NCBI GenBank assembly: GCA_963779755.1 | Contig: CAVZZO010000003.1 | Coordinates: forward strand, 1,248,001 to 1,312,000 | Length of the DNA stretch: 64,000 nt | Direction: 5' to 3' | From: an uncultured Gemmatimonadales bacterium | GTDB taxonomy: Bacteria > Gemmatimonadota > Gemmatimonadetes > Gemmatimonadales > GWC2-71-9 | Shown here: one piece after another, positions 5,161 to 56,650 of the stretch | Numbering within the stretch: the first letter of the stretch is position 1 | Layout: every line of letters starts with the position of its first letter | Notes under the pieces: generated by a model | The model's database searches: none | The model's input: the letters and a program-made list of their open reading frames with translations, nothing else | Told to the model about the DNA's origin: nothing | Translations under genes and position numbers: made by a program

Positions 5161-5268
5161 AGTCGCCAGTCGCCAGTCGCCAGTCGCGGCAGGATATCGC
5201 TCCGGCGCAGCTTCGCAATGGTCCGGGTGTGCAGACTGGTGACTAGCGACTAATGACTAGCGACTACC
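5161..5268. repeat. Inverted pair of 7-bp tandem arrays (AGTCGCC x4 / GACTRRN x5)
   Basis: agtcgcc repeats 5161-5187; degenerate complement gactggt-gactagc-gactaat-gactagc-gactacc 5234-5268; between convergent genes. Confidence 0.8.
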
Positions 5269-5902: not shown

Positions 5903-6001
5903 CGGGAAAGGGGAAAAGGGAACAGGGGAATGGGGAATGGGAACGGGCTCAGGCCGGCACCGAGGTCCTCCCGGTTCCCTGTTCCCCCTTCCCCTTTCCC
6001 G
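5903..6001. repeat. Inverted 7-bp GGGAANN / NNTTCCC tandem arrays
   Basis: Purine arm 5903-5947 and pyrimidine arm 5968-6001; the latter encodes the C-terminal tail of the MFS protein. Confidence 0.8.
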
Positions 6002-7226
6002 GCTTTCGCGCGCTCCAGATCACGCCGGCGGCCACGATCATGCAGATGATCCCCCCCAGCCTGAACGACCACTGCACCCCAAAGTGCTCTGCCACCCAGC
6101 CTGCCTGGAAGGCGCCGAAGGGGGAGAGACCGAGTACCAGAAAGGAGTACACCCCCATGACCCGGCCGCGGAGCTGGTCGGGGGCTTCGGTCTGCAGCAG
6201 CGTGTTGGTGAGCACGCTGGCACCCACCATCGCCGTGCCGGCGACGGTCAGGAGCGCCAGGGCCAGCCAGAAGCTGTCGAAGAAGGAAGCGCTGATGAGT
6301 CCGGCCCCGAACATGAGCCCGGAGAACAGCAGCACCCGGCGGCGCGGCAGCCGGTGGCCGAACGCCGCCAGGAAGAGCGCGGCGGCCGAGGCGCCCACCC
6401 CGCTGGCGCTCACCAGGGTGCCATATCCGGAGGCGCCGACCTTGAGCACCTCGCGCGCCAGCACCGGCAGCATGGGGATAAAGGCGGCCCCGAAGACGCT
6501 GAAGGTCCCCGTGAGGATCACCAGGCGCCGGGGCCAGGGCTCGCCCAGCATGTAGGCCATCCCCTCGCGGAAGGCGCGCCTGGGCTGCTCCCCGAGCTCC
6601 CGGCGGTAGGGCGGCAGCCGCATGAGGAGAAGCCCGGTGATCACCGCGATGTAGCTGGCGGCATTGACAAAGAAGCAGGCCGCGAGCCCGACCGACGCGA
6701 TCAGCACGCCCGCAATGGCCGGCCCCAGGATCCGGCTCACGTTGAAGACCGACGAGTTGAGCGCGATGGCGTTCATCAGCGAATCGCGATCGGTCATCTC
6801 CACGATGAAAGCCTGGCGGGTCGGGACCTCGAACGCCGACAGCGTCCCGAAGAAGACTGCCAGCCCGGCCACCCAGGGCACGCTGATGTGGCCCGTCACC
6901 TGAAGAATGCCGAGGGAGGTGGCCTCCAGCAGCATCAGCGACTGGAGAATGAGAATGAGCCGGTGCCGGTTCACCCGGTCGGCGATCACCCCGCCGTAGA
7001 GCGAGAAGAGCAGGATCGGCAGCGAGCCCAGGGCGCTCACCAGGCCCACCGTAAAGGCGGAGTTGGACAGCTGCAGCACCAGCCACCCCACCGCCACCCG
7101 CTGAATCCAGGTGCCCGAGAGCGAAATGAACTGCCCGATGAGAAACAGGCGGAAATTGCGGTAGCGCAGGGCGCCGAAGGACGGCGGGGGCTGCGCGGGG
7201 AGCGGATCGCGGGCGGAAATGGTCAC
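5949..7226 (-). CDS. MFS transporter (MFS_3/DHA3-like)
   Basis: ALRYRNFRLF..GQFISLSGTW start, GGVIADRVNR motif A, LRGRVM, about 12 hydrophobic segments; GTG start inferred. Confidence 0.88.
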   Translation of the reverse strand: MTISARDPLPAQPPPSFGALRYRNFRLFLIGQFISLSGTWIQRVAVGWLVLQLSNSAFTVGLVSALGSLPILLFSLYGGVIADRVNRHRLILILQSLMLLEATSLGILQVTGHISVPWVAGLAVFFGTLSAFEVPTRQAFIVEMTDRDSLMNAIALNSSVFNVSRILGPAIAGVLIASVGLAACFFVNAASYIAVITGLLLMRLPPYRRELGEQPRRAFREGMAYMLGEPWPRRLVILTGTFSVFGAAFIPMLPVLAREVLKVGASGYGTLVSASGVGASAAALFLAAFGHRLPRRRVLLFSGLMFGAGLISASFFDSFWLALALLTVAGTAMVGASVLTNTLLQTEAPDQLRGRVMGVYSFLVLGLSPFGAFQAGWVAEHFGVQWSFRLGGIICMIVAAGVIWSARKPGKGKGEQGTGRTSVPA

Positions 7227-7238
7227 GCGCCGGATAGT

Positions 7239-7411
7239 AAAGGGGAAAAGGAAAACGGGAATGGGGAAACGGGAAGAGGTGAGGCATACGGGGCGCCACG
7301 CCCTGCCTCCTCGGCCCTCCCGCCCTGCAGCCTTACCAGAAAATGTGCCGGATGTTATGCATTCGAAGAGGGGGTCTGCCAGTTCCCATTTCCCTTTTCC
7401 CCATTCCCCCG
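7239..7411. repeat. Inverted 7-bp GGGAANN arrays around a divergent intergenic region
   Basis: Purine arm 7239-7279, pyrimidine arm 7383-7411, about 100-bp spacer. Confidence 0.75.
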
Positions 7412-7416
7412 TTCGT

Positions 7417-8703
7417 ATGCGCTTCACCACCTACTCCAAATTCGTCCCCGGCCTGGCCGACGCCGTCAATCTCCAGAGCCTCCTCGACCAGCTGGGCGAC
7501 TTCCTGCTCCAGTCGGGGTTTGCCGGCGGGGGGAACTACCCCTTCTGGGACGACGAAGAGCAGCAGCATTCGATGGACGCCCTGCGCCAGGCCATTCTCC
7601 AGGCGCTGATGGACTCGGGCCAGCTGACTCCCGAGATGCTCAAGGTCCTGCGGGGCGAGAGCACGGGAGACGCCGAGCGCGACCGGCAGATCCAGCAGGA
7701 GCTGGCGCAGCTGCTGGACCAGATCGTCCAGCGGCTGGTGGAGGAGGGCTATCTCAGCGCTACCGAAGCGCCCCAGATGCCGGCCGGCTACCAGAACATG
7801 ACGGGGCCGGGGGGCGAGGCCAAAGCGGCCGCGCAACAGGTGCAGTTCAATCTGACGGAAAAGGGCATCGACTTTCTGGGCTACAAGACGCTGCGCAACC
7901 TGCTGGGCGCCATCGGCAAGTCCAGCTTCGGCTCGCACGAGACGGCACACCTGGCCACCAGTGTCGAAGCCGAGGCGGCGAGCAAGCCCTATGAGTTCGG
8001 CGATACGCTGAACCTGGACGTGCCGGCGACCCTCACCCACGCCATCGCGCGCGAGGGGCTGGGGGTGCCGATCAACCTGGATTACGGCGACCTCATGGTG
8101 CATCAGAGCGAGTACCGCTCGTCGTCGGCCACGGTGCTCATGCTGGACTGCTCACACTCGATGATTCTTTACGGGGAAGACCGGTTCACGCCGGCCAAGA
8201 AGGTGGCGCTGGCGCTCACCCATCTGATCCGCACCCAGTACCCCGGCGACACGCTCAAGGTGGTCCTCTTCCACGATTCGGCGGAGGAGATTCCGTTGCC
8301 GGGGCTGGCCCGGGCGCAGGTGGGCCCGTACCACACCAATACCGCGGAGGGGCTCAAGCTGGCGCGGCGGATCCTGAGCGGCCAGAAGAAGGACATGAAG
8401 CAGATCATCATGATTACCGACGGCAAGCCGTCGGCGCTCACCATGCCGGACGGCCGGGTCTATGTGAACAGCATGGGGCTCGATCCGATGATCCTGAAGG
8501 CCACCTTCCGCGAGGTGGCCAACTGCCGCCGCAGCGGGATCATGATCAATACCTTCATGCTGGCGCGCGACCGGAGCCTGGTGGAGTTCGTGAAGCAGGT
8601 GGCGCAGATCTGCCGGGGCAAGGCCTACTTCACCAACACGATGACGCTGGGGCAGTTCATCCTGATGGATTTCATGAAAAGGAAGACGAGGAAGGTGTCG
8701 TAG
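7417..8703 (+). CDS. VWA domain protein (likely partner of the AAA+ ATPase)
   Basis: [24 protein letters not shown]. Confidence 0.85.
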
Positions 8704-8732
8704 GGCAGCGTTACGTCTTACCTTCCCGGGCG

Positions 8733-9416
8733 ATGCCCGCCCTCGCCGCCCTCGAACGCCGCATCCCCGCCTGTTCGCGCTGCCCCGAATTACGCCGTTA
8801 CTGCGCCCGCATCGCCCGGGAGAAGAAGCGCGCCTACCGCGACTGGGACTACTGGGGCCGGCCCGTCCCCGGCTTCGGCGACCCGCGGGCGCGGCTCCTC
8901 ATCGTCGGCCTGGCGCCGGCCGCGCACGGCGCCAACCGCACCGGCCGCATGTTCACCGGCGACTCCAGCGGCGACTGGCTCTACCACGCGCTCCACCGCT
9001 ACGGCTTCGCCAGCCGGGGCGAGTCGGTCTCGCGCGACGACGGCCTGCGGCTGGTGGACTGCTTCATCAGCGCCGCCCTCCGCTGCGCACCGCCCGGCAA
9101 CAAGCCCACCCGCGCCGAGATGGAGCGCTGCCGGCCATGGCTGGTGCAGGAGATGGCCCTGCTCACCCGCGTCCGGGTCGTGGTAGTGCTGGGGCGTATC
9201 GCCTGGCAGAACTGGCTCCAGGCGGCGGGCTGGTGGGAGCGGCTGGCCCCGCGGGAGCGTCCGCCCTTCGGGCACGGCGAAGCCCGGACCCTGCCGGACG
9301 GCACCACGCTGATTTCGTCCTACCATCCCAGCCGGCAGAATACCAATACAGGGCGGCTGGGACGGGCGGCGTTTCATGCGATCTTTCAGAGGGCGAGAGA
9401 AGCGGTGCGCGGCTAA
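8733..9416 (+). CDS. udgB: Uracil-DNA glycosylase family 5
   Basis: CxxC, GLAPAAHGANRTGRMFTGD, RCAPPGNKP, YHPSRQNTNTG. Confidence 0.88.
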   Translation: MPALAALERRIPACSRCPELRRYCARIAREKKRAYRDWDYWGRPVPGFGDPRARLLIVGLAPAAHGANRTGRMFTGDSSGDWLYHALHRYGFASRGESVSRDDGLRLVDCFISAALRCAPPGNKPTRAEMERCRPWLVQEMALLTRVRVVVVLGRIAWQNWLQAAGWWERLAPRERPPFGHGEARTLPDGTTLISSYHPSRQNTNTGRLGRAAFHAIFQRAREAVRG

Positions 9417-9418
9417 GG

Positions 9419-9590
9419 GATGGGAGAAGGACGGGAAGAAGACGGGAGAAGGACGGGAGAAGGACGGGAAAGAAGACGGGAGAAGGACGGGAAGAAGACG
9501 GGAGAAGGACGGGAAGAAGGACGGGAGAAGGACGGGAAGAAGACGGGAGAAGGACGGGAAGAGGACGGGAGGAAGACGGGAGGAGGGTAG
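9419..9590 (+). repeat. Purine-rich tandem array of about 15 x 11-bp GACGGGA-NNNN
   Basis: Mostly alternating GACGGGAGAAG / GACGGGAAGAA units (two are 12 bp), starting right after the udgB stop. Confidence 0.95.
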
Positions 9591-9605
9591 GAGCGGGGGC
9601 AGGGG

Positions 9606-9962
9606 TTAGCGCGGACCCAGCGAGGTGTACTGCCTCCAGACAAGGCGCGCGGCGTACTGCCGCATCTGCTCGGACCGGTCGTAATCGCCCCCGGAGAGAA
9701 ACCTCTGATCGCGGGCAAAGCGCAGAATGACCTGCAATTCGGCGAGGGATGATCGAGCGATGTCCAGAAACCGCCGCAACTCGCCCCTGCCCCAGCGCGA
9801 ATTGCCCTCCGCAATGTTCGCCGGTACGGAAAACGCTGCCCGACGGGCCTGTGAGGTCAAGCCGTACAACTCATCCCGAGGCCATTTTCTCGTGACCCGG
9901 TAAACCTCGCCGGCCAACTCGTAGGACACCTGCCAGCTGCGAAGCTTCTCATGCTCGGCCAT
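9606..9962 (-). CDS. Four helix bundle protein (23S rRNA intervening-sequence protein / Avd-like family)
   Basis: KLRSWQ..ELYGLTSQARRAAFSVPANIAEG..FLDIARSSLAEL signature. Confidence 0.9.
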   Translation of the reverse strand: MAEHEKLRSWQVSYELAGEVYRVTRKWPRDELYGLTSQARRAAFSVPANIAEGNSRWGRGELRRFLDIARSSLAELQVILRFARDQRFLSGGDYDRSEQMRQYAARLVWRQYTSLGPR

Positions 9963-10090
9963 ATCAAACGATGGCGAAATATGCCGCACCTTTCGTCATC
10001 GGAAAAATGCAGGACGCGGCAAGAACCCAACTGGACCTGCCCCGGTTTGGTGGACACCTGATGTCGTAGATTACGACAAGGAGGTGTCTC

Positions 10091-10372
10091 ATGGGCAAGG
10101 CCCGACGGCAGTACGACGAACAGTACAAGCGTGAGGCCGTCCGGTTTCTGGAAGAGACCGGGCGGCCGTTGCGTGCGGTGGCCGACGAGCTCCAGGTGAG
10201 CGAGGGGGCGTTGTGGCGCTGGCGGAAGCGGTACGGGACGGGGGCGCAGGCGGGGGTGAGCCCGAGTGAGGCGGCGGAGCTGCGGCGCTTGCGCCGGGAG
10301 AATGAGATCCTGCGCCAGGAGCGGGATTTCTTAAAAAAAGCGGCAGCGTACTTCGCGAATCCGTCCCCGTGA
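10091..10372 (+). CDS. IS3 transposase OrfA (HTH)
   Basis: RRQYDEQYKREAV..LRRENEILRQERDFLKKAAAYFA; AAAAAAAG -1 slippery site at 10333-10340; GGAGG RBS. Confidence 0.9.
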   Translation: MGKARRQYDEQYKREAVRFLEETGRPLRAVADELQVSEGALWRWRKRYGTGAQAGVSPSEAAELRRLRRENEILRQERDFLKKAAAYFANPSP

Positions 10373-10959
10373 AGTATGCCTGTATCCGGCGGCATGAGGG
10401 CGGCTTTCCGGTGGGGCTGATGTGTCGGGTGTTGGCGGTTTCGCGGGCGGGGTATTACGCCTGGCGGCGGCGCCGGCCCAGTGCCCGAGCCCAGCAGGAT
10501 ACGCAGTTGCGGGTGGTGATTCGGGCCATTCACGCGGCGAGCCAGCGGCGCTATGGCCGGCCCCGGATACATCGGGAACTCCGGGACACGCATCAGATTC
10601 GCTGCAGTCCCAAGCGGGTCGCGCGGCTCATGCAGCTGGACGGGTTGCGGGGAAAGCGTACCCGGCGGTACCGGGGCACGACCCAGAGCGATGGGACCCC
10701 CCCGGCCCCCAACCACCTGGGGCGGCGCTTTCACGTCAGCGAGCGCAATCGGGTGTGGGTCAGTGATGTCACCGCCTGCGCCACCGACCAAGGGTGGCTC
10801 TATTTGGCGGTGGTCCTGGATCTGGCCTCGCGACGGGTGGTGGGCTGGGCCGCCGGCGCGACGGTGGGCTAGGAGCTCACCCTGGCCGCCCTGCGCCAGG
10901 CCTTGACCCATCGCACCCCGCCGCCGGGGCTGCTGCACCATTCCGATCGCGGGATGCAT

Positions 10960-12431
10960 GGCGGATTCAAGTGGTCGTCGCAACACCCACTCTGTGGAGG
11001 TTGCGATGGGAGTACCGAAGCGTCGAAGGAGCGATCGGTCGGGGCGAGCCAAGGTGCGCTCGCCCGGGCGCCCGCCAGTGGGGCGGCGTGAGGACCGGCG
11101 GGTGTTCTGGGCGGCGATCGCACGGGGCGAGTATCCCGCGGTGGCGGTCGCCGACGCCCGCGTGTCGTGGGTGGTGGGAGTGCGCTGGTTCCGCCAAGCT
11201 GGAGGGATGCCTCCCTCGCATCTGGCCCCGGGGGCGCCACCGCTCTCGGGGCGCTACCTCTCGTTCGCGGAGCGCGAGCAGCTCGCCCTCCTCAGGGCCC
11301 AGCGACTCGGCGTGCGCGAGTGTGCCCGTTGGCTCCATCGCGCGCCGTCGACGATCTCGCGCGAGTTGCGCCGCAACGCGGCCACGCGCAGCGGCGCGCT
11401 CGATTACCGCGCCACCACGGCGCAGTGGCACGCCGATCGTGCGGCCTGTCGACCAAAGGCGGCAAAGCTGGCAATCGATCCGCGGCTGCAGCAGTATGTG
11501 CAGGAGCGGCTGGCGGGAGTAATTGCATTCCCCGACGGCGTGCCGATCCACGGGCCGGCGGTGCCGTGGAAGGGTCGGCGGCACGGGCGTCGCCAGCACC
11601 GGCGCTGGGGGCGCGCGTGGAGCCCCGAGCAGATCGCGCACCGACTCCCCCTCGACTATCCAGACGATCCGACGATGCGCATCAGCCACGAGGCGATTTA
11701 CCAGGCCCTCTACGTGCAGGGCCGTGGTGCGCTCCGTCGGGAACTCACCGCGTACCTGCGCACGGGGCGAGCCTTGCGGGTCCCGCGAGCCCGCACGCGC
11801 GGCCGGGGCAAGCGCTTTGTCACGCCGGAGCTGCGGATCGCCGAGCGCCCGGCGGAAGTTGAGGATCGTGCGGTTCCAGGGCATTGGGAAGGCGACCTGA
11901 TCCTCGGGCTCGGCAGCTCGGCCATCGGCACGCTCGTCGAGCGTACCACCCGCTTCACCGTGCTGCTGCACCTGCCGCGTATGGCGACACACGCCACGGG
12001 CGCCCGGACGACCGACACGCGGAACGGCCCGCCCCTAGCGGGGCACGGTGCCACCGCCGTGCGGGACGCGATCGTCCGCACGATGCGCACGGTGCCGCGC
12101 CAGCTTTGGCGCTCGCTCACGTGGGATCAAGGCGCTGAGATGGCCGAGCACGCCCAGCTCCGGATCGACACCGGCCTCGCGGTCTACTTCTGTGATCCGC
12201 ACAGCCCGTGGCAGCGCGGAACCAACGAGAACACGAACGGGCTGCTGCGGCAGTTCTTCCCGAAAGGGACCGACCTCAGCGTCCACCGCGCCGCGATCCT
12301 CGATGCGGTCGCGCTCGCCCTCAACGCGCGTCCGCGGAAGACCTTGGACTGGCGTACCCCTGCCGAAGCCTTCGCCACCCTGCTACGATCTGCAGTGACA
12401 ACGACCGTTGCGACGACCGATTGAACCTGGG
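10960..12431 (+). mobile_element. IS30-family element nested in IS3 orfB
   Basis: 25-bp imperfect IRs (19/25, core GGTCGTCGCAAC); CAT duplication at 10957-10959 and 12432-12434. Confidence 0.9.
11006..12424 (+). CDS. IS30-family transposase
   Basis: RAPSTISRELRRN HTH, WSPEQI, GHWEGDL, LTWDQGAEM, PWQRGTNENTNGLLRQFFPKG; GGAGG RBS. Confidence 0.93.
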   Translation: MGVPKRRRSDRSGRAKVRSPGRPPVGRREDRRVFWAAIARGEYPAVAVADARVSWVVGVRWFRQAGGMPPSHLAPGAPPLSGRYLSFAEREQLALLRAQRLGVRECARWLHRAPSTISRELRRNAATRSGALDYRATTAQWHADRAACRPKAAKLAIDPRLQQYVQERLAGVIAFPDGVPIHGPAVPWKGRRHGRRQHRRWGRAWSPEQIAHRLPLDYPDDPTMRISHEAIYQALYVQGRGALRRELTAYLRTGRALRVPRARTRGRGKRFVTPELRIAERPAEVEDRAVPGHWEGDLILGLGSSAIGTLVERTTRFTVLLHLPRMATHATGARTTDTRNGPPLAGHGATAVRDAIVRTMRTVPRQLWRSLTWDQGAEMAEHAQLRIDTGLAVYFCDPHSPWQRGTNENTNGLLRQFFPKGTDLSVHRAAILDAVALALNARPRKTLDWRTPAEAFATLLRSAVTTTVATTD

Positions 12432-12746
12432 CATTACACCGGGACCAGCTATCAGCGGCTGCTCGCGGCGCACGGCGGCATCGCCAGCATGAGCCGACGC
12501 GGGGATTGCTGGGATAATGCCGTGGCGGAGAGTTTCTTCGCCACCCTGAAAACCGAACTGGTGGCCGACGCGAATTGGCGGAGTCGCGCCGAGGGAACCG
12601 ACGCACTCCGCCAGTATCTCGCCTGGTACAACGGGCGACGGTTACATTCGAGCTTGGACTACCGGAGTCCCGCGGCGTACGAGCGTCAACTCGCCGCTGC
12701 TTAACCCCGTGTCCACGAAATCGGGGCAAGACCAAACCACCGGCCA

Positions 12747-12811
12747 TTTTCCCGTCTTTCTCCCGTCTTTCTCCCGTCCTGCTCCCGTCTTACTCCCATC
12801 TTACTCCCGCC
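12747..12811 (-). repeat. About 6 x 11-bp NNNN-TCCCGTC array, inverted relative to 9419-9590
   Basis: ttttcccgtc tttctcccgtc tttctcccgtc ctgctcccgtc ttactcccatc ttactcccgcc. Confidence 0.9.
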
Positions 12812-12813
12812 CC

Positions 12814-14259
12814 CTACCGCACCCGCTTCAGAACCGTCCCCGCCGGAAAGCTCGTCTGATCCGTCGCCTCGTTGATGATCGCCAGGTCCTCGCTGGGAAT
12901 GGTAGAGGGATAGGCCTGGGCGAACTGCGCGAAGGTCATGCTCCGCGGCAGCTTCACCAGCTCGACCCGTTTGGGCTTCACATTGAGCGCCGCCTGATTG
13001 GTCAGTGGGGCGAAGCTGCCGATGGCGCTGTAGAATGCGCTCTGATAGGTGCCGATCCGGTCGGCGGCGGTATAGCCCAGGATCTGGTACACCTTCCCGC
13101 CGTAGGCGATGAACGTCGCGATGCCGCGCAGCGGCGTTCCCTGACTGTCCTGGGCATCGAAAACCGCGGTGACCGCCGACTGGCCGTTGATGGAATTCTG
13201 GCTGGTCTGCCCCGGCTGCACACCCTGCTGGCTCAGGAACTGCTGGGCTGCCGCCGAGGGAGTGGCGGCCTGGGAGAGCGACAGCTCGATCGCGGCATCG
13301 TTGTTGGGACTTACCGCCACGACGGCCTGCGGCTGATTCTGGTACTGCCAGCCCTGCGGCATGGTGATCTGGAACCGCAGGTTGGGATGGTAGAACACGT
13401 TGTTCTGGAAGTATCCCTGCGCGGGATCCTCGCCATAGATCACGTTGTTGACCCGCTGCAGATACCCGTCGCGGTTCACCACCGCGCCGGCCAGGCTCTT
13501 GCTCAGGGTATCGAGCCGGGCCTGGGTCGCCTGGATCCGGTTGCCGGGATCGGGGTGGGTCGCCAGCCATTCGGGCAGCCCGCTGCCGCCCTGCGCCTGG
13601 CTCATCCGCTGCAGGATCTGGAACACGTCCACCATCTGGCGTACGTCCCAACCGTGCTCCTCCGTGTACTTGAACCCCAGCCGGTCGGCCTCGGCTTCGT
13701 CGTCCCGGCTGTACTTCAGGAACAGCAGGTTCAGCCCCAGACCGGCCACATTCCCCAGCTTGGCCACGGTGGGCGAGAGAATGGAGCCCAGGCCCAGGCC
13801 GAGCTGCGCCACCTGCTGCTGGCTGATCTGCTCCACCGCGTGCCGGTGCGTGACGTGCCCGATCTCGTGCCCGATGACCGACGCCAGCTCCGCCTCGTTG
13901 TTGATCGCCGTAATGAGCCCGCGGGTCACGAAAATCGGACCGCCCGGCAGGGCGAACGCGTTCACCGCGGGGTCGTCCACCACCTGGAAGCTCCAGGGAA
14001 GATTCGGGCGCTCGGACGTCTTGGCCATCTTCATGCCGATACTCGACACGTAGCTCTGCAGCTGCGGGTCGTTGTACAGGCCGATCGTCTGCCGCACCTC
14101 CTCCGCCCCCTGCTGGCCCATCTGGATTTCCTGGCTTTCCGATACCAGGGCCAGTTCGGACTTGCCGGTAACCGGATTGGTGGCGCAGCTCACCGCCAGC
14201 GCGCCTGCGAGTATGGCAGGGACGGTGCGACGGAGCGAAGTCAGCATGGGTAGCGGCAT
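12814..14259 (-). CDS. M48 family metalloprotease lipoprotein
   Basis: LAVSC lipobox, NAFALPGG, HEIGH zinc motif, YSRDDEAEAD, THP; start may instead be 14247. Confidence 0.9.
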   Translation of the reverse strand: MPLPMLTSLRRTVPAILAGALAVSCATNPVTGKSELALVSESQEIQMGQQGAEEVRQTIGLYNDPQLQSYVSSIGMKMAKTSERPNLPWSFQVVDDPAVNAFALPGGPIFVTRGLITAINNEAELASVIGHEIGHVTHRHAVEQISQQQVAQLGLGLGSILSPTVAKLGNVAGLGLNLLFLKYSRDDEAEADRLGFKYTEEHGWDVRQMVDVFQILQRMSQAQGGSGLPEWLATHPDPGNRIQATQARLDTLSKSLAGAVVNRDGYLQRVNNVIYGEDPAQGYFQNNVFYHPNLRFQITMPQGWQYQNQPQAVVAVSPNNDAAIELSLSQAATPSAAAQQFLSQQGVQPGQTSQNSINGQSAVTAVFDAQDSQGTPLRGIATFIAYGGKVYQILGYTAADRIGTYQSAFYSAIGSFAPLTNQAALNVKPKRVELVKLPRSMTFAQFAQAYPSTIPSEDLAIINEATDQTSFPAGTVLKRVR

Positions 14260-14368
14260 GGGCTTGAGACCTGTGCGAGTGGTGAACGGCCAGTCGGGCT
14301 CCCACCTCGAATACCCTGTCATACTGACCACCTGGACGGCGCCGGGCTGTGCCGGAGCGCACACTGCC

Positions 14369-15319
14369 TCAAGTGCGGCCCAGCAGCCGCCAGGGCAGCC
14401 GCGCATCCGGCCGGACGAAGTGGCGCTGCAGGGGCCGCCAGTCGGCCCATGCCCGGGCGCCCTGTTCCTCCAGATGCTCCCACAGTACCGGCAACCGGCG
14501 CCGGGCGGCGCCCTCGCATAGCTCGTTCAGCGTCCGCGCCAGCACCTGCGCGTCCTGCAGCCGCCCCAGCACCGACTGCAGCCGGCGAAGCTGCTCCAGC
14601 CGCCGGACGGTACCGGGCCCGGCCACGTCGACCAACGGCTCTACCTGGTAGCGCAGCCGTTTGCCGATGCGGCGCAACTGGTGCAGCGTCTCGCCCTGGG
14701 CGTCGAGGTCCGCCGGCGGGCCCGTCCCGGGATCTTCCCGCGCCACCTGCAACCTGCCCTGCCTGAGAACCGCCCCGATACCCCAGCCCGGATGCAGCCA
14801 GAAGCGGCGCAGCACGGGTGAGAGCAGGTCGGGTAACGTATCGCCGGCGCGAAGGGAGGCGGGCCAGCGCCAGGCCGGGCGGGCCAGCCAGGCGGACAGA
14901 CCGCGCCGCATCCCGGAGAATGCGCGGCTCCGGAAGGCGGCACGCGCCTCGGCCAGGGCAGCCTCGCGCCGCTCCCGTAGCACGCCGGCGATCCGGTGCA
15001 GTTCCACCCGTTCCGCCACCGCCGGCGGCGTGGCTGGCGGCGCATCCAGCCACTCGAGCAGCACGTCGTGATCGCGCAGGGCGCGAAACCGGCGCCCGAA
15101 ACGCGCGACCGTGCGCGCACTCCCGGCCTTCGGCAGGTCGAGCCCGGGCCCGAAGACCTCGAGCGCAGCGCGCAAGCGCCGCAGCGCCACACGAAAATCG
15201 TGCACCGCCCTGGTGTCCTTCCCGGACTCGACACCCGAACGCTCCTTCAGCATCCGGCCGAAGGAGCGCTCGATCGCCGGAAAGGCGAGGTCGGCGAGAA
15301 GGATCTGCGGCTGGGCCAT
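14369..15319 (-). CDS. CHAD domain protein
   Basis: VHDFRVALRRLRA, LRDHDV, LHQLRRIGKRLRYQVE, LQSVLGRLQD. Confidence 0.85.
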   Translation of the reverse strand: MAQPQILLADLAFPAIERSFGRMLKERSGVESGKDTRAVHDFRVALRRLRAALEVFGPGLDLPKAGSARTVARFGRRFRALRDHDVLLEWLDAPPATPPAVAERVELHRIAGVLRERREAALAEARAAFRSRAFSGMRRGLSAWLARPAWRWPASLRAGDTLPDLLSPVLRRFWLHPGWGIGAVLRQGRLQVAREDPGTGPPADLDAQGETLHQLRRIGKRLRYQVEPLVDVAGPGTVRRLEQLRRLQSVLGRLQDAQVLARTLNELCEGAARRRLPVLWEHLEEQGARAWADWRPLQRHFVRPDARLPWRLLGRT

Positions 15320-42645: not shown

Positions 42646-44580
<1,935 letters not shown>

Positions 44581-52160: not shown

Positions 52161-52219
52161 AGGGACCAGGAACCAGGAATAAGGAATCAGGGTCCCTGGT
52201 CCCTGGTCCCTGGTGCCTG
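52161..52219. repeat. Inverted 7-bp arrays AGGRAYC / CTGGTCC
   Basis: agggacc aggaacc aggaata aggaatc agggtcc ctggtcc ctggtcc ctggtgc in a divergent intergenic gap. Confidence 0.8.
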
Positions 52220-52236: not shown

Positions 52237-55200
52237 ATGGCCCCTGAGCTCTTCCACCCCGCCGTCTCCCGCTGGTTCTCCCGCCGGTTCGGCGCGCCCA
52301 CTCCCGCGCAGCAGCGCGGCTGGGAGGCGATCCGCTCAGGAAGGCACACACTGATCGCCGCCCCGACCGGCTCGGGCAAGACCCTCGCCGCCTTCCTGAG
52401 CGCGCTGGACGATCTCCTGCGCGAGGGGCAGGACGGTCCGCTAGCGGATGAGACCCGGGTGCTCTATGTCTCTCCGCTCAAGGCCCTGACGGCGGATATC
52501 CACTACAACCTGACGGAACCGCGCCGCGAGATCCGCCAGGTGGCCGAGGAGATGGGCGCCGAGCCCGTCCGGATTACCGCCGCCATGCGCACCGGCGACA
52601 CGCCTTCCGCCGCGCGCGCGGCGATGCTGCGCACGCCCCCCCATATCCTGGTCACCACGCCCGAGTCGCTCTACCTGCTGCTCACCGCCGAGCGCAGCCG
52701 CGAAATGCTGCGGACGGTGCGGACCGTCATCGTCGATGAGATCCATGCGGTGATCGAGTCGCGCCGGGGCGCGCATCTGGCCCTTTCGCTCGAACGCCTG
52801 GGCCACATCACGGGACGGGAGCCGCAGCGCATCGGCCTTTCGGCCACGCAGAAGCCCATCGAAGCCGTCGCCGCGTGGCTCACCGGCACCGACGATCCCG
52901 CCGCCTGCGCCATCGTCGACGAAGGGCACCGCCGCGCCCTGGACCTGGGCCTGGAGGTTCCCGGCGCGCCGCTCGAGGCCGTGATGTCCGCCGAGGTGTG
53001 GGAGGAGGTGTATGCCCGGCTGGCCGAGCTGATCGACCAGCACCGGACCACCCTCGTCTTCGTCAACACGCGGCGGCTGGCCGAGCGGGCGGCGCGCCAT
53101 CTGGCCGAACGGCTGGGCGAAGAGGCGGTGACGGCCCACCACGGCAGCCTGTCGAAGGACGTCCGGCTCGACGCGGAGGAGCGGCTCAAGAGCGGCAAGC
53201 TGCGGGCCCTGGTGGCCACCGCTTCGCTGGAACTGGGCATCGACATCGGGCATGTGGACCTGGTCTGCCAGCTGGGCTCGCCCCGGAGGATCTCGACCTT
53301 TCTTCAGCGCGTCGGCCGGGCGGGGCACACCGTGCATGGCACCCCGAAAGGCCGGCTCTTCCCCCTCTCGCGCGACGAGCTGGTGGAATGCACCGCCCTG
53401 CTCCGGGCAACAGGGCGGGGAGACCTGGACCGGCTGGTGATCCCGCCCAAACCCTTCGACGTGCTGGCCCAGCAAGTGGTGGCGGAGACCGCCTGCGAGG
53501 ACTGGCAGGAAGAAGACCTGTTCCAGCTGGCCCGGCGGGCCTGGCCGTATCGCACGCTCACTCGCGAGGAGTTCGCCGAAACGGTGGAGATGACGGCCCA
53601 GGGCTTCTCCACCCGGCGCGGCCGCCGGGGAGCGCTGGTGCATCACGACGCCGTGCATCACCGGCTGCGTGGGCGGCGGGGCGCCAGGCTGCTGGCCCTG
53701 ACCTCGGGCGGAGCCATCCCCGACAACGCCGACTACCGCGTGGTGCTGGAGCCGGAAGGCACCTTCCTCGGCACGCTGAACGAAGACTTCGCCGTGGAAA
53801 GCATGGCCGGCGACGTGTTCCAGCTTGGTAATACCTCGTGGCGCATCCTCCGGATCGAAAGCGGTGTGGTGCGGGTGGAGGATGCCAGGGGCGAGCCGCC
53901 CAGCATTCCCTTCTGGCTGGGCGAGGCACCGGGCCGGAGCGATGAGCTGAGCCTGGAGGTCTCGAGGCTTCGAGCCGACCTGGAGCCCCTGCTGGCCGAT
54001 GAGGAGGCCGCCATCGCATGGCTGCTGGCCGAAACCGGCATCGGGCGGCCGGCGGCGGCGCAGCTGGTGCGCTACCTGGCCGAGGCGCGCCGGCTGCTGG
54101 GAGCCCTGCCGACGCAGGATTGCCTGGTGGCGGAACGGTTCTTCGATGAGGCGGGCGGCATGCAGCTCATCGTACATTCGCCCTTCGGCAGCCGGATGAA
54201 CCGCGCGTGGGGCCTGGCATTACGGAAGCGGTTCTGCCGGCAATTCAATTTCGAGTTGCAGGCGGCCGCCACCGAAGACGGCATCCTGCTGTCACTGGGC
54301 CCGCAGCACTCGTTCCCGCTGGAGGATGTGTTCCGCTTCCTGCAGCCCGAATCGGCCGAGAACATTCTGGTGCAGGCCCTGCTCGACGCCCCCATGTTCG
54401 GGACCCACTGGCGCTGGAATGCGACCATCGCGCTGGCGATCGCCCGCAACCGGGGCGGCCGCAAGGTGGCACCCCAGCTGCAGCGGATGCAGGCGGAAGA
54501 TCTGCTCGCGGCCGTCTTTCCCGACGCCGCCGCCTGCCTGGAGAACATCGCCGGCGACCGCGAGGTGCCCGACCATCTGCTGGCCCGGCAGACCATTGCC
54601 GACTGCCTGCATGAGGTGATGGACATCGACGGCCTTCGCACGGTGCTCGAACGGATCCGCTCGGGCAATGTCCGGCTGGTGGCGCGCGACCTGCCCGAGC
54701 CCTCCACGCTTGCGAGTGAAGTGGTCAATGCCCGGGTGTATGCCTTCCTCGATGACGCGCCGCTGGAAGAGCGCCGGACCCAGGCGGTCTATACCCGGCG
54801 GGCACTGGAGCCCTCGAGCGCGGGCGACCTGGGCGCGCTGGACGTCGCGGCCATCGAGCGCGTGCGGGGTGAAGCGTGGCCCGATCCGCGGGATGCGGAC
54901 GAGATGCACGATGCGTTGCTCACGAGCGGGATCCTCACGACGGCAGGACGGCAGGACGGCAGGGCGGCAGGCGAAGACTGGGCTGCCCTGCTCCAGGAGC
55001 TGCTCGCGACCGGGCGTGCAGGCAGGATGGGCGATCGCTGGTTCGCCACCGAGCGGGTGGAAGAGATCCGTGCGGTGTTTCCGGACGCGGTGATCGAGCC
55101 GCCGGGCCTCACGGCGCCGGGGGACGTGCCCCGGCCCGACCGGCAGTCCGCCGTCAAGGAGTTGGTACGGGGGCAGCTGGAGATCCTGGGCCCGGTAACG

Positions 55201-56586
55201 GCGGCGAGCCTGGCAGACACGCTGGGCATCGCCGCCGGCGATGCCGCTATCGCGCTGGCGGAGCTGGAGGCCGAAGGCACCGTGCTGCGCGGCTATTTCA
55301 CCCCCGATGCCGGTGTGCTCGAGTGGTGCCACCGACGGCTGCTGGCCCGCATCCATCGCTACACCCTCACCCGGCTCCGCACCGAGATCGAGCCGGTGAA
55401 TGCCGCCGATTTCATGCGGTTCCTCTTCACCTGGCAGCGGGTCGAGCCGGAAACCCGGGCCAGCGGTCTGGAGGGCCTCTCGGCGGTGCTGGATCAACTG
55501 GACGGGTACGAGCTGCCCTCGGGCGCCTGGGAGAGCGATGTGCTGGCTCTGCGGATCAACGAATACGACCCTGCGCTGCTCGACACGCTCTGCCTCACCG
55601 GGCGGGTGGCCTGGGGACGGCTCTCCGAGGCCCGGCAGCCGGAGGGCCAGGGCGCGCCGGGCCGCCCCATCCGCTCGACCCCGGTGGCGCTGTTCCGCCG
55701 CGACCACGCCAATCTCTGGCGCGCCCTGGCACCGGCTCCCCAACCGCCGGCGCTCTCGACCTATGCCGCCCTGGTCAGCGAAGCGCTGGAACGGCGGGGA
55801 GCTTCGTTCTTCCAGGAGATCGTCGCCGCCTCGGGGCTCCTGGCAACCCAGGTCGAGGAGGCCCTGGGCGAGCTCGCCTCGCTGGGCCGGGTCACCTCGG
55901 ACGGCTTCACCGGCCTGCGGGCGCTGGTTACGCCGGCCGACCGCCGGCCTCCGGTGGGCGCCCGGCGCCGGGCCCGGGCGGCGGTTCCGGCCGGGGTGGA
56001 AACGGCGGGGCGATGGGCGCTGATCGAGGGCGGCAGGACGGCAGGACGGCAGGACGGCAGGCAGGATGACCCGCCGGGAAAGCCGGACGACCGCGGGCAG
56101 CCGATCGAGGCCTTTGCCTGGACGCTGTTGCGGCGGTATGGCGTGGTCTTTCGCAGGCTGCTCGCGCCCGAAGCGCTGGCGCCCGCCTGGCGCGAGCTGG
56201 TGATGGTCTATCGCCGGCTGGAGGCTCGGGGAGAGATCCGGGGCGGCCGTTTCGTGGCCGGCGTCTCGGGCGAGCAGTTCGCCCTGCCGGAGGCGGTGGG
56301 GTCGCTGCGTTCGGCCCGGCGCCGGGAGCCGACCGGCCGCCTGCTCAGCATCAGCGCAGCCGATCCCCTGAACCTCACCGGCATCGTCACGCCGGGGCCG
56401 CGGGTGCCCGCCCTCGCGTCATACCGGATTATCTACCAGGACGGCGTCCCCCTCGCCTCGCGGGAGGGAGGCCAGATCCGGCCGCTGGCGCTGATCCCGC
56501 CGGAACGGACGCACGAGATCGAGCGGGCGCTGGTGCGGAAACGGCCGATAGAAGCGCGGAGCGGGGCGGTCGGAAAGGTGGGATAA
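52237..56586 (+). CDS. lhr: Lhr-family ATP-dependent DEAD/H helicase
   Basis: APTGSGKT, TTPESL, DEIH, SAT, HHGSLS, SLELGIDIG, QRVGRAGH; winged-helix C-terminus with GEQFALP. Confidence 0.93.
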   Translation: MAPELFHPAVSRWFSRRFGAPTPAQQRGWEAIRSGRHTLIAAPTGSGKTLAAFLSALDDLLREGQDGPLADETRVLYVSPLKALTADIHYNLTEPRREIRQVAEEMGAEPVRITAAMRTGDTPSAARAAMLRTPPHILVTTPESLYLLLTAERSREMLRTVRTVIVDEIHAVIESRRGAHLALSLERLGHITGREPQRIGLSATQKPIEAVAAWLTGTDDPAACAIVDEGHRRALDLGLEVPGAPLEAVMSAEVWEEVYARLAELIDQHRTTLVFVNTRRLAERAARHLAERLGEEAVTAHHGSLSKDVRLDAEERLKSGKLRALVATASLELGIDIGHVDLVCQLGSPRRISTFLQRVGRAGHTVHGTPKGRLFPLSRDELVECTALLRATGRGDLDRLVIPPKPFDVLAQQVVAETACEDWQEEDLFQLARRAWPYRTLTREEFAETVEMTAQGFSTRRGRRGALVHHDAVHHRLRGRRGARLLALTSGGAIPDNADYRVVLEPEGTFLGTLNEDFAVESMAGDVFQLGNTSWRILRIESGVVRVEDARGEPPSIPFWLGEAPGRSDELSLEVSRLRADLEPLLADEEAAIAWLLAETGIGRPAAAQLVRYLAEARRLLGALPTQDCLVAERFFDEAGGMQLIVHSPFGSRMNRAWGLALRKRFCRQFNFELQAAATEDGILLSLGPQHSFPLEDVFRFLQPESAENILVQALLDAPMFGTHWRWNATIALAIARNRGGRKVAPQLQRMQAEDLLAAVFPDAAACLENIAGDREVPDHLLARQTIADCLHEVMDIDGLRTVLERIRSGNVRLVARDLPEPSTLASEVVNARVYAFLDDAPLEERRTQAVYTRRALEPSSAGDLGALDVAAIERVRGEAWPDPRDADEMHDALLTSGILTTAGRQDGRAAGEDWAALLQELLATGRAGRMGDRWFATERVEEIRAVFPDAVIEPPGLTAPGDVPRPDRQSAVKELVRGQLEILGPVTAASLADTLGIAAGDAAIALAELEAEGTVLRGYFTPDAGVLEWCHRRLLARIHRYTLTRLRTEIEPVNAADFMRFLFTWQRVEPETRASGLEGLSAVLDQLDGYELPSGAWESDVLALRINEYDPALLDTLCLTGRVAWGRLSEARQPEGQGAPGRPIRSTPVALFRRDHANLWRALAPAPQPPALSTYAALVSEALERRGASFFQEIVAASGLLATQVEEALGELASLGRVTSDGFTGLRALVTPADRRPPVGARRRARAAVPAGVETAGRWALIEGGRTAGRQDGRQDDPPGKPDDRGQPIEAFAWTLLRRYGVVFRRLLAPEALAPAWRELVMVYRRLEARGEIRGGRFVAGVSGEQFALPEAVGSLRSARRREPTGRLLSISAADPLNLTGIVTPGPRVPALASYRIIYQDGVPLASREGGQIRPLALIPPERTHEIERALVRKRPIEARSGAVGKVG

Positions 56587-56589
56587 CGA

Positions 56590-56650
56590 CGGGAAACGGG
56601 AAGAGGGAAAGGATATTGTATCTCTCCCCTTTCCCTTTTCCCCATTCCCG
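56590..56650. repeat. Inverted 7-bp GGGAANN arrays (hairpin) between convergent genes
   Basis: cgggaaacgggaagagggaaag ... tctcccctttcccttttccccattcccg. Confidence 0.8.

What the first reader, a model, noticed from the sequence alone, without database searches (positions are those of the whole stretch)
9417..12813. Four-helix-bundle gene packaged between two inverted 11-bp tandem arrays: candidate mobile or RNA-processed cassette
Seen: the interval between the udgB and M48 stop codons holds ~15 x GACGGGA-NNNN (9419-9590), an IVP/Avd-like four-helix-bundle ORF (9606-9962, minus) and, once the IS3 is removed, ~6 inverted copies of the same 11-mer (12747-12811). The reconstructed unit is about 690 bp and encodes no transposase. 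Established: this protein family is encoded in RNase III-excised 23S rRNA intervening sequences and is related to the DGR accessory protein Avd. Inference: on the gene's transcript the two arrays could pair into a long, register-flexible stem that loops out the ORF. That would be an IVS-like unit outside rRNA, or a repeat-bounded selfish cassette whose protein binds the repeats.
Basis: partly seen in the sequence, partly recalled or inferred. Interest (0 to 1): 0.82.

Follow-up and report, generated by a model that had tools for sequence, protein, structure and literature searches.

The report
Four-helix gene bracketed by matching repeats
A small gene of the unexplained "23S rRNA intervening-sequence protein" family sits between two mirror-image runs of an 11-base repeat that also forms gene-free hairpins elsewhere in this soil bacterium's genome, and repeat length tracks the protein's lineage, so the protein is probably the keeper or spreader of its own repeat family.

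Summary
Confirmed: 15 + 6 inverted 11-mer units bracket a PF05635 gene. The interruption is an IS3 (10032-12734, AAC duplication) that carries a nested IS30. The IS-free 691-bp form is borne out by a metagenome contig (L190: M48-side arm plus the orthologous gene, under purifying selection); one relative has an empty junction. The scan found this gene-in-inverted-arrays layout before (36 notes, and notes on this same genome).

Added here: (1) The unit recurs at 15 other sites of this genome and in none of 400 family genomes, beside only this IVP gene. (2) Repeat period tracks protein clade: this clade has periods 8-11 and no heptamer (36 called of 46), other IVPs have heptamers (58 of 60 called), and this genome holds both kinds. 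(3) A conserved -10 box lies inside the arms, so the gene's own mRNA probably lacks the 5' arm.

Best reading (0.5): a REPIN/RAYT-like "master gene plus hairpin population" run by an Avd-fold nucleic-acid-binding pentamer; the catalytic step is unknown. Against: 8 of 11 genomes rich in a test unit showed no gene bracketed by it, and no binding, RNA or movement data exist. I found no paper describing the link.

The parts
8733..9416 (+). uracil-DNA glycosylase gene (left neighbour); its TAA stop abuts the array
   Evidence: PF03167 105 bits
9417..9603 (+). downstream arm: 15 units GA(C/T)GGGA-N4/5 (9419-9586) plus a decayed inner tail
9606..9962 (-). 23S_rRNA_IVP / four-helix-bundle gene, 118 aa, member of the Gemmatimonadales 'clade B' (periods 8-11)
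   Evidence: purifying selection vs L190
9963..10031 (-). spacer holding the inferred own promoter (-10-like CATCGT 11 nt before the ATG; TATGCT at the same place in L190)
   Evidence: family-level signal; strict sigma-70 scan finds nothing here; inference
10032..12734 (+). IS3-family element, later insertion, AAC target duplication (10029-10031 / 12735-12737), orfB broken
10956..12430 (+). IS30-family element nested in the IS3 integrase gene (3 copies in the genome, over 99% alike)
12745..12813 (-). upstream arm: 6 units of the same 11-mer in inverted orientation, starting at the M48 stop
   Evidence: same arm with 4-5 units in L190
12814..14406 (-). M48 peptidase gene (right neighbour), co-directional with the IVP gene
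   Evidence: PF01435 142 bits
17606..17738 (.). gene-free hairpin of the same 11-mer family (one of 15 other sites in the genome)

Best explanation
This is the gene-bearing 'master' copy of a genome-specific population of tandem-repeat hairpins, organised like REPIN/RAYT but built on a different protein. Shown: arm - spacer - IVP gene - inverted arm, sitting between two stop codons; the same unit forms gene-free hairpins at other gene boundaries; each full-length IVP paralogue of the genome has its own repeat unit; period follows protein clade. Inferred: the gene is transcribed from a promoter inside the arms as a leaderless mRNA. The protein forms an Xcc0516/Avd-type basic pentamer that recognises its cognate periodic repeat when the repeat is single-stranded or folded into an imperfect hairpin (ssDNA, cruciform or RNA). 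It reads a G-D-C-G-G-like core, with the spacer length set by the protein. By doing so it protects, lengthens or seeds such hairpins at gene ends. Not known: the strand-cutting or copying enzyme (IVP itself through its invariant polar residues, or a host or trans-acting enzyme). The IS3/IS30 is a later passenger that separated the arms but left gene and promoter intact.
For: 11-mer family: 25 arrays at 17 loci, two of them this cassette's arms, with one IVP beside them; 80 pattern matches in G000 and 0 in 400 family genomes. Of 15 repeat families I defined by eye, 7 account for all 8 full-length IVP genes and 2 lie beside GxxExxY genes. Tree of 146 IVPs: the clade with this protein (n=46, support 0.87) has p8 21, p9 6, p10 7, p11 2, uncalled 10, p7 0; the other 100 have p7 58, p8 2, uncalled 40. 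That is 3 label changes vs 30 shuffled, minimum 21. G000 holds four genes of each kind with the matching periods. A 15-row subclade (0.92) keeps period 10 (one has 11) with different letters. Five units x five genomes: 23, 32, 8, 17 and 22 matches on the diagonal, most away from the cassette, and 2 off it, in the genome with a sister protein. No genome with zero copies of a test 10-mer had an IVP bracketed by it (0 of 9). Purifying selection: pN 0.076, pS 0.83 over 58 codons. Same M48 junction: empty in G017, filled by three different hairpins in G024, G015 and G007. IVP is sense to the host operon in 20 loci and antisense in 20. Fold equals pentameric Xcc0516 (TM 0.96, Z 21) and Avd (Z 14-15); Avd binds an RNA stem-loop through flipped-out bases (bioRxiv 2023.10.23.563531, passages). 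Xcc0516 itself has a 4-unit GGGAATC array at its start codon (PMC4692102 supplement S2 row).
Against: The reverse prediction mostly failed. Of 11 genomes with 5 or more matches to the test 10-mer, only 3 (including the source) showed an IVP bracketed by it, and one had a near-cognate unit; G119, G328 and G376 (59, 41 and 21 matches) showed none. Most of these are fragmented assemblies, but G313 has only 20 contigs. Five repeat families of G000 have no gene found. Loops of the gene-free hairpins share no sequence and the two arms carry different unit variants, unlike copied REPINs. Within the clade, unit similarity does not follow protein distance overall (Mantel p 0.21; nearest-protein similarity 0.22 vs 0.08). 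Kin share labels, so co-inheritance alone can produce the period-clade link. The 5x5 test used patterns taken from those genomes and five different genera, and its reversed control gave 9 matches in G019. No catalytic motif, no reverse transcriptase, and the three Y1 transposases are not beside arrays. The cassette has stayed at this site while M48 diverged to 84% DNA identity. No movement, binding or expression was observed.
Confidence: 0.5

Rival explanations
1. mRNA-level intervening sequence: host read-through RNA folds the two arms into a long stem that RNase III cuts, releasing or silencing the IVP ORF, as in 23S rRNA IVSs. This may be how insertions are tolerated rather than what the element is for, so it is compatible with the best explanation.
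For: 65-bp arm-arm stem on either strand, ten near-equal registers. Same protein family in an IVS with a 28-bp terminal stem cut by RNase III (PMC4990558, passages). 40 of 57 loci with both neighbours called lie inside co-directional gene pairs. M48 reads into the cassette here.
Against: Conserved promoter-like box inside the arms. Arms here are separated by 3.2 kb of IS and the gene is intact. The locus lies between convergent stop codons, where excision rejoins nothing. It does not explain one unit per paralogue or the dispersed gene-free hairpins.
Confidence: 0.2
2. Domesticated regulator: IVP paralogues are TRAP/Hfq-like ring proteins that bind repeat hairpins at gene ends to control termination or mRNA stability. 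The arrays are their binding sites, and the arrays around the gene give autoregulation.
For: Arrays hug gene boundaries: 186 ORF-array pairs within -12..+40 nt of a stop, most within about 10 nt. Basic protein (net +7) with the Avd fold. Long residence and purifying selection. Heptamer repeats in Xanthomonas are transcribed and lie at stable sites (PMC4692102, abstract and passages).
Against: The same junction carries different units or none in relatives. A unit is patchy within one genus (8 of 17 genomes of g48). Rehm et al. report no functional bias among repeat-linked genes and found no regulatory role.
Confidence: 0.2
3. Passive: slippage-prone lineage-specific repeats colonise gene boundaries on their own, and IVP genes only hitch-hike between two such arrays; the protein never touches them.
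For: The genome has 979 merged short arrays and 188 inverted pairs. Ordinary genes are sometimes enclosed too. Repeat families without a found gene exist.
Against: 101 of 131 IVP loci vs 2 of 33 controls and 167 of 2635 ORFs of this genome. Period is fixed at 7 across several phyla with unrelated letters and switches with the protein clade, also within one genome.
Confidence: 0.1

Closest known systems
REPIN / RAYT systems (Bertels and Rainey 2011, PMC3116915; abstract and passages seen)
   Same: Single-copy gene flanked by its own repeat type; several such pairs per genome; many gene-free inverted doublets in intergenic space; mostly vertical persistence.
   Different: Arms are tandem arrays of 7-11-mers, not palindromic REPs; loops are not shared between copies; the gene is a four-helix bundle, not a HUH/Y1 transposase; no transposition intermediate shown.
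ORF-bearing 23S rRNA intervening sequences (S23p/IVP; Coxiella, PMC4990558, passages seen)
   Same: Same protein family inside a long terminal stem; sporadic distribution.
   Different: Not in rRNA; stem built from tandem repeats; own promoter-like box and purifying selection, whereas the Coxiella ORF is reported as probably unexpressed and decaying.
DGR accessory protein Avd (4DWL, 8UB7; bioRxiv 2023.10.23.563531, passages seen)
   Same: Same fold (Z 14-15); basic; a pentamer by homology.
   Different: Below the Avd model cut-off (22 vs 80 bits); no reverse transcriptase found in the genome.
G-rich heptamer repeats of Xanthomonas and Nostoc (Rehm et al. 2015, PMC4692102; abstract, passages and supplement rows seen)
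   Same: Dispersed short tandem arrays, often as inverted pairs, next to stop codons, avoiding divergent promoters; XCC0516 is listed beside one.
   Different: In the passages seen they are read as quadruplex-forming repeats with no protein partner. Here the units are 8-11 nt, many have only GG runs, and they are tied to IVP clades.

Membership tests
23S_rRNA_IVP protein family (PF05635 / TIGR02436) | HMM score above the curated cut-off | tested here: met
   101 vs 33.8 bits; 92 vs 24 bits
23S_rRNA_IVP protein family (PF05635 / TIGR02436) | four-helix bundle like Xcc0516 / BT_0352 | tested here: met
   AF2 pLDDT 97; TM 0.96 to 2GSC, Z 21.2; 2RLD Z 16.3
23S_rRNA_IVP protein family (PF05635 / TIGR02436) | homopentamer | not tested
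   inferred from 2GSC (5 chains; described as a homopentamer in PMC4990558); no complex prediction was run
rRNA intervening sequence | located inside a 23S/16S rRNA gene | tested here: not met
   between udg and M48; no rRNA or other real Rfam match in 8500-14500
rRNA intervening sequence | complementary ends forming a long stem around the ORF | tested here: met
   65 bp predicted for the IS-free unit
rRNA intervening sequence | excision by RNase III without religation | not testable with these tools
   needs RNA end data
REPIN/RAYT | HUH Y1 transposase flanked by the repeats | tested here: not met
   the enclosed gene is PF05635; the genome's three PF01797 genes have other flanks
REPIN/RAYT | many extragenic inverted doublets of the gene's own repeat | tested here: met
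   15 other sites, 8 strict closed pairs, control 0
REPIN/RAYT | doublets copied as units (conserved arms and spacer) | tested here: not met
   loops unrelated by inspection, arm variants differ per site
REPIN/RAYT | protein-dependent cleavage or excision of the repeat | not testable with these tools
   needs biochemistry
Diversity-generating retroelement (Avd) | Avd model above cut-off | tested here: not met
   NF033474 22.4 vs 80 bits
Diversity-generating retroelement (Avd) | reverse transcriptase in the locus or genome | tested here: not met
   no PF00078 match in a 97% complete genome
Classical IS / MITE | target-site duplication and fixed terminal inverted repeats at the cassette ends | tested here: inconclusive
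   no close empty allele; ends abut stop codons; TAG/TAA enriched there but TGA also occurs

The most novel reading that the evidence does not exclude
IVP/S23p proteins are the missing trans-acting factors of the long-unit tandem-repeat hairpins of bacteria (the heptamers of Xanthomonas and cyanobacteria, the 8-11-mers here). They would form a new class of selfish element in which an Avd-like ring recognises a periodic hairpin and drives its insertion or elongation at gene ends with no transposase, integrase or reverse transcriptase of its own. The ring sets the period (7 ancestrally, 8-11 in this clade), GxxExxY proteins may play the same part for other repeat families, and rRNA intervening sequences are copies that landed in rRNA.
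Probability: 0.35. Interest if true: 0.92.

Novelty: new variant of a known kind. Interest (0 to 1): 0.75.

Why it matters
Two old puzzles would meet: the function of the S23p/IVP family (structures solved in 2006-2007, no function known) and the origin of abundant 7-11-nt intergenic repeat arrays in many bacteria. This genome offers eight paralogues with distinct units (periods 7, 8, 9 and 11), a ready cognate versus non-cognate binding matrix. If protein sets period, it is a natural series of repeat-reading rings, and possibly a new way for small DNA elements to spread.

Tried and rejected
Expression: no RNA holder listed. Three DNA runs of one study held small shares and served only to mark the IS ends.

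Metagenome scan for the 11-mer: 11 loci. Only L190 had an IVP match; the other 10 had none and mostly one arm.

RAYT as mobiliser: a RAYT-like gene at C1:953128 has its own palindromes, not arrays. Retro-mechanism: no PF00078 match. Rfam: two chance hits only. Strict promoter/terminator scan: nothing. Single-sequence AF2 model: unusable (pLDDT 47).

G-quadruplex as the general explanation was rejected on sequence: many clade units have only GG, and TAGTCGC has no G run. A strict TA target was rejected because TGA stops also abut arms. Residues separating period-10 from period-8 proteins were listed, but they are confounded with descent and I did not interpret them. The search for cognate genes of five orphan repeat families found none.

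Literature: eight searches listed no paper tying IVP genes to flanking tandem arrays. The library lacks most subscription journals, and bioRxiv supplements were closed. PMC4679880 (passages) does not mention the protein. No complex prediction and no large protein-database search were run.
Full report
Observation. The window is G000:C3:1248001-1312000; the nearest named relatives of the protein are Gemmatimonadales. There are 15 units of GA(C/T)GGGA-N4/5 from 9419, a 118-aa ORF at 9606-9962 (-), and six inverted units at 12745-12811. The ORF scores above the cut-offs of PF05635 and TIGR02436 and far below that of Avd. An alignment-based model (pLDDT 97) matches Xcc0516 (TM 0.96, Z 21), BT_0352 (Z 16) and Avd (Z 14-15). 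The interruption is an IS3 at 10032-12734 with an AAC duplication. It holds a nested IS30 at 10956-12430; DNA contigs of runs X2 and X3 join across the IS30 and end at the IS3 ends. Without the IS3 the unit is 691 bp. Its arms pair over 65 bp (-116 vs -82 +/- 4 kcal/mol in shuffles), with ten registers within 14 kcal/mol.

The IS-free form is real. One of 11 metagenome loci with the 11-mer, L190, is the orthologous site: M48 stop, four to five units, a 65-nt spacer and the IVP gene, with no IS. The contig ends inside the gene, so the second arm is not seen. Over 58 codons pN is 0.076 and pS 0.83; for M48 the values are 0.077 and 0.40. The spacer has diverged while the unit has not. Among 14 udg and 24 M48 loci from other genera none had an IVP hit. 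In G017 the udg and M48 stops abut (empty site), and in G024, G015 and G007 the M48 end carries gene-free hairpins of three other units.

Family-wide pattern. PF05635 is in 128 of 151 family genomes. With one detector, inverted shared repeats flank 23 of 29, 56 of 76 and 22 of 26 IVP loci from three searches (8 short loci dropped). The controls give 2 of 33 udg/M48 loci (5 dropped), and direct repeats flank only 5 of the 131 IVP loci. In G000, 6 of 8 full-length IVP genes score 8 or more, against 19 of 2635 coding-like ORFs; the other two have arms visible by eye. The scan has reported this layout before (36 notes; same genome); these are leads, and the counts above are my own.

One gene per repeat family. 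G000 holds 979 merged arrays of period 7-12 and 188 inverted pairs. The 11-mer forms 25 arrays at 17 loci, two being this cassette's arms; only this IVP lies beside it, and the pattern is absent from 400 other family genomes. Of 15 families that I defined by eye, seven account for all eight IVP genes, two lie beside GxxExxY genes, five have no gene found and one had no hit. In five other genomes the unit around a related IVP is likewise dispersed in its own genome (23, 32, 8, 17 and 22 overlapping matches, of which 5, 5, 2, 2 and 6 are at the cassette). It is missing from the other four genomes except for 2 matches in a genome with a sister protein. Different genera and self-derived patterns weaken this test. 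A blind follow-up was mixed. One 10-mer occurs in 25 of 401 genomes and is patchy within its genus. An IVP bracketed by it was found in 3 of 11 genomes with five or more matches (source included) and in 0 of 9 with none. So gene implies dispersed unit, but unit does not imply a found gene; assembly gaps or gene loss may explain this, and so may independence.

Period follows protein. In a tree of 146 proteins the window's protein falls in a clade of 46 with periods 8 (21), 9 (6), 10 (7), 11 (2), 10 uncalled and no heptamer. The other 100 have 58 heptamers, 2 octamers and 40 uncalled (the eight G000 labels were set by eye). That is 3 changes vs 30 for shuffled labels. Kin share labels, so this does not prove co-evolution. 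But G000 carries four genes of each kind with the expected periods, heptamers recur across several phyla with unrelated letters, and a subclade keeps period 10 while its letters change. Clade units share a G-D-C-G-G-like core with a variable spacer. A core plus a free spacer of 3-6 nt fits reading of a single strand or a bulged hairpin better than reading of B-DNA (inference). Avd is reported to grip an RNA stem-loop with flipped bases between protomers. Xcc0516 has four GGGAATC-type units at its start codon in a published table that lists no inverted partner.

Expression geometry. TANNNT starts 11-14 nt before the ATG in 18 of 40 clade genes (shuffle mean 1.9, maximum 9), which points to a leaderless mRNA from a promoter inside the arms. 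In the window the hexamer is CATCGT and in L190 TATGCT, and the IS3 landed upstream of it. The gene faces with the host operon in 20 loci and against it in 20; the neighbours converge in 14 and diverge in 3 (57 called of 82, crude ORF calls). The stem can therefore form on host RNA or on DNA in either orientation, but probably not on the gene's own mRNA. Arrays start close to stop codons, with TAG/TAA enriched (74 of 124 vs 903 of 2496, p 8e-8).

Mechanism and rivals. I favour (0.5) a master gene plus hairpin population, as in REPIN/RAYT (PMC3116915), with an Avd-fold ring recognising its cognate periodic hairpin and promoting its upkeep or spread. Recognition and spread are inferred, not shown, and the enzyme is unidentified: no reverse transcriptase was found, and the Y1 transposases have other flanks. 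Invariant P28, Q38, R41, E52, G53, S72 and E75 are the residues to test. The gene-free hairpins do not share loops, so they are not simple copies. Rivals are an mRNA-level IVS cut by RNase III (0.2; compare PMC4990558), a domesticated repeat-binding regulator (0.2) and passive hitch-hiking (0.1).

Membership and novelty. The protein is a member of the IVP family. The element is not an rRNA IVS, a DGR or a RAYT system by their defining features, though it works most like the last in organisation. Eight literature searches listed no description of the gene-array link. I file it as a new variant of a known kind, with a 0.35 chance that it is a new class of element.

Noticed in passing
window 10956-12430; G000:C3:1549969 and C3:1818919: All three copies of this IS30 (over 99% alike) sit at the same motif of IS3-type integrase genes (just after the H-S-D-R-G codons): an IS that seems to target other ISs.
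   Followed up: partly
window 5161-5266, 5904-6002, 7239-7401, 52161-52219, 56589-56649, 54939-54971, 56027-56061: Further 7- and 8-mer arrays and inverted pairs of other families in gene spacers.
   Followed up: partly
G000:C1:2086413-2086928 and C3:1465509-1465835: GxxExxY (PF13366) genes bracketed by their own inverted 8-9-mer arrays (CGCGAAG, CGCAGATTA), the same layout with a different protein.
   Followed up: partly
G000:C3:1489117-1506475: Cluster of nine whole or partial GxxExxY copies within 18 kb.
   Followed up: no
G000:C1:953128-953475: RAYT-like Y1 transposase between two direct copies of a palindromic repeat.
   Followed up: no
G000, 9-mer GGTCGAGRG family (34 arrays): This family pairs with the opposite polarity (C-rich arm first) and has no cognate gene found.
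   Followed up: partly
window 9606-9962 vs L190: Synonymous divergence of the IVP gene (0.83) is twice that of neighbouring M48 (0.40), with no clear substitution bias; lower GC3 may explain part of it.
   Followed up: partly
L019 (G024), after the M48 stop: A palindromic REP-like element nested inside a tandem-repeat hairpin.
   Followed up: no
G000:C1:1473999-1474148: Truncated IVP remnant with only the upstream arm visible.
   Followed up: no
window 43032-43265: Long 6-bp-period arrays, probably coding repeats.
   Followed up: no
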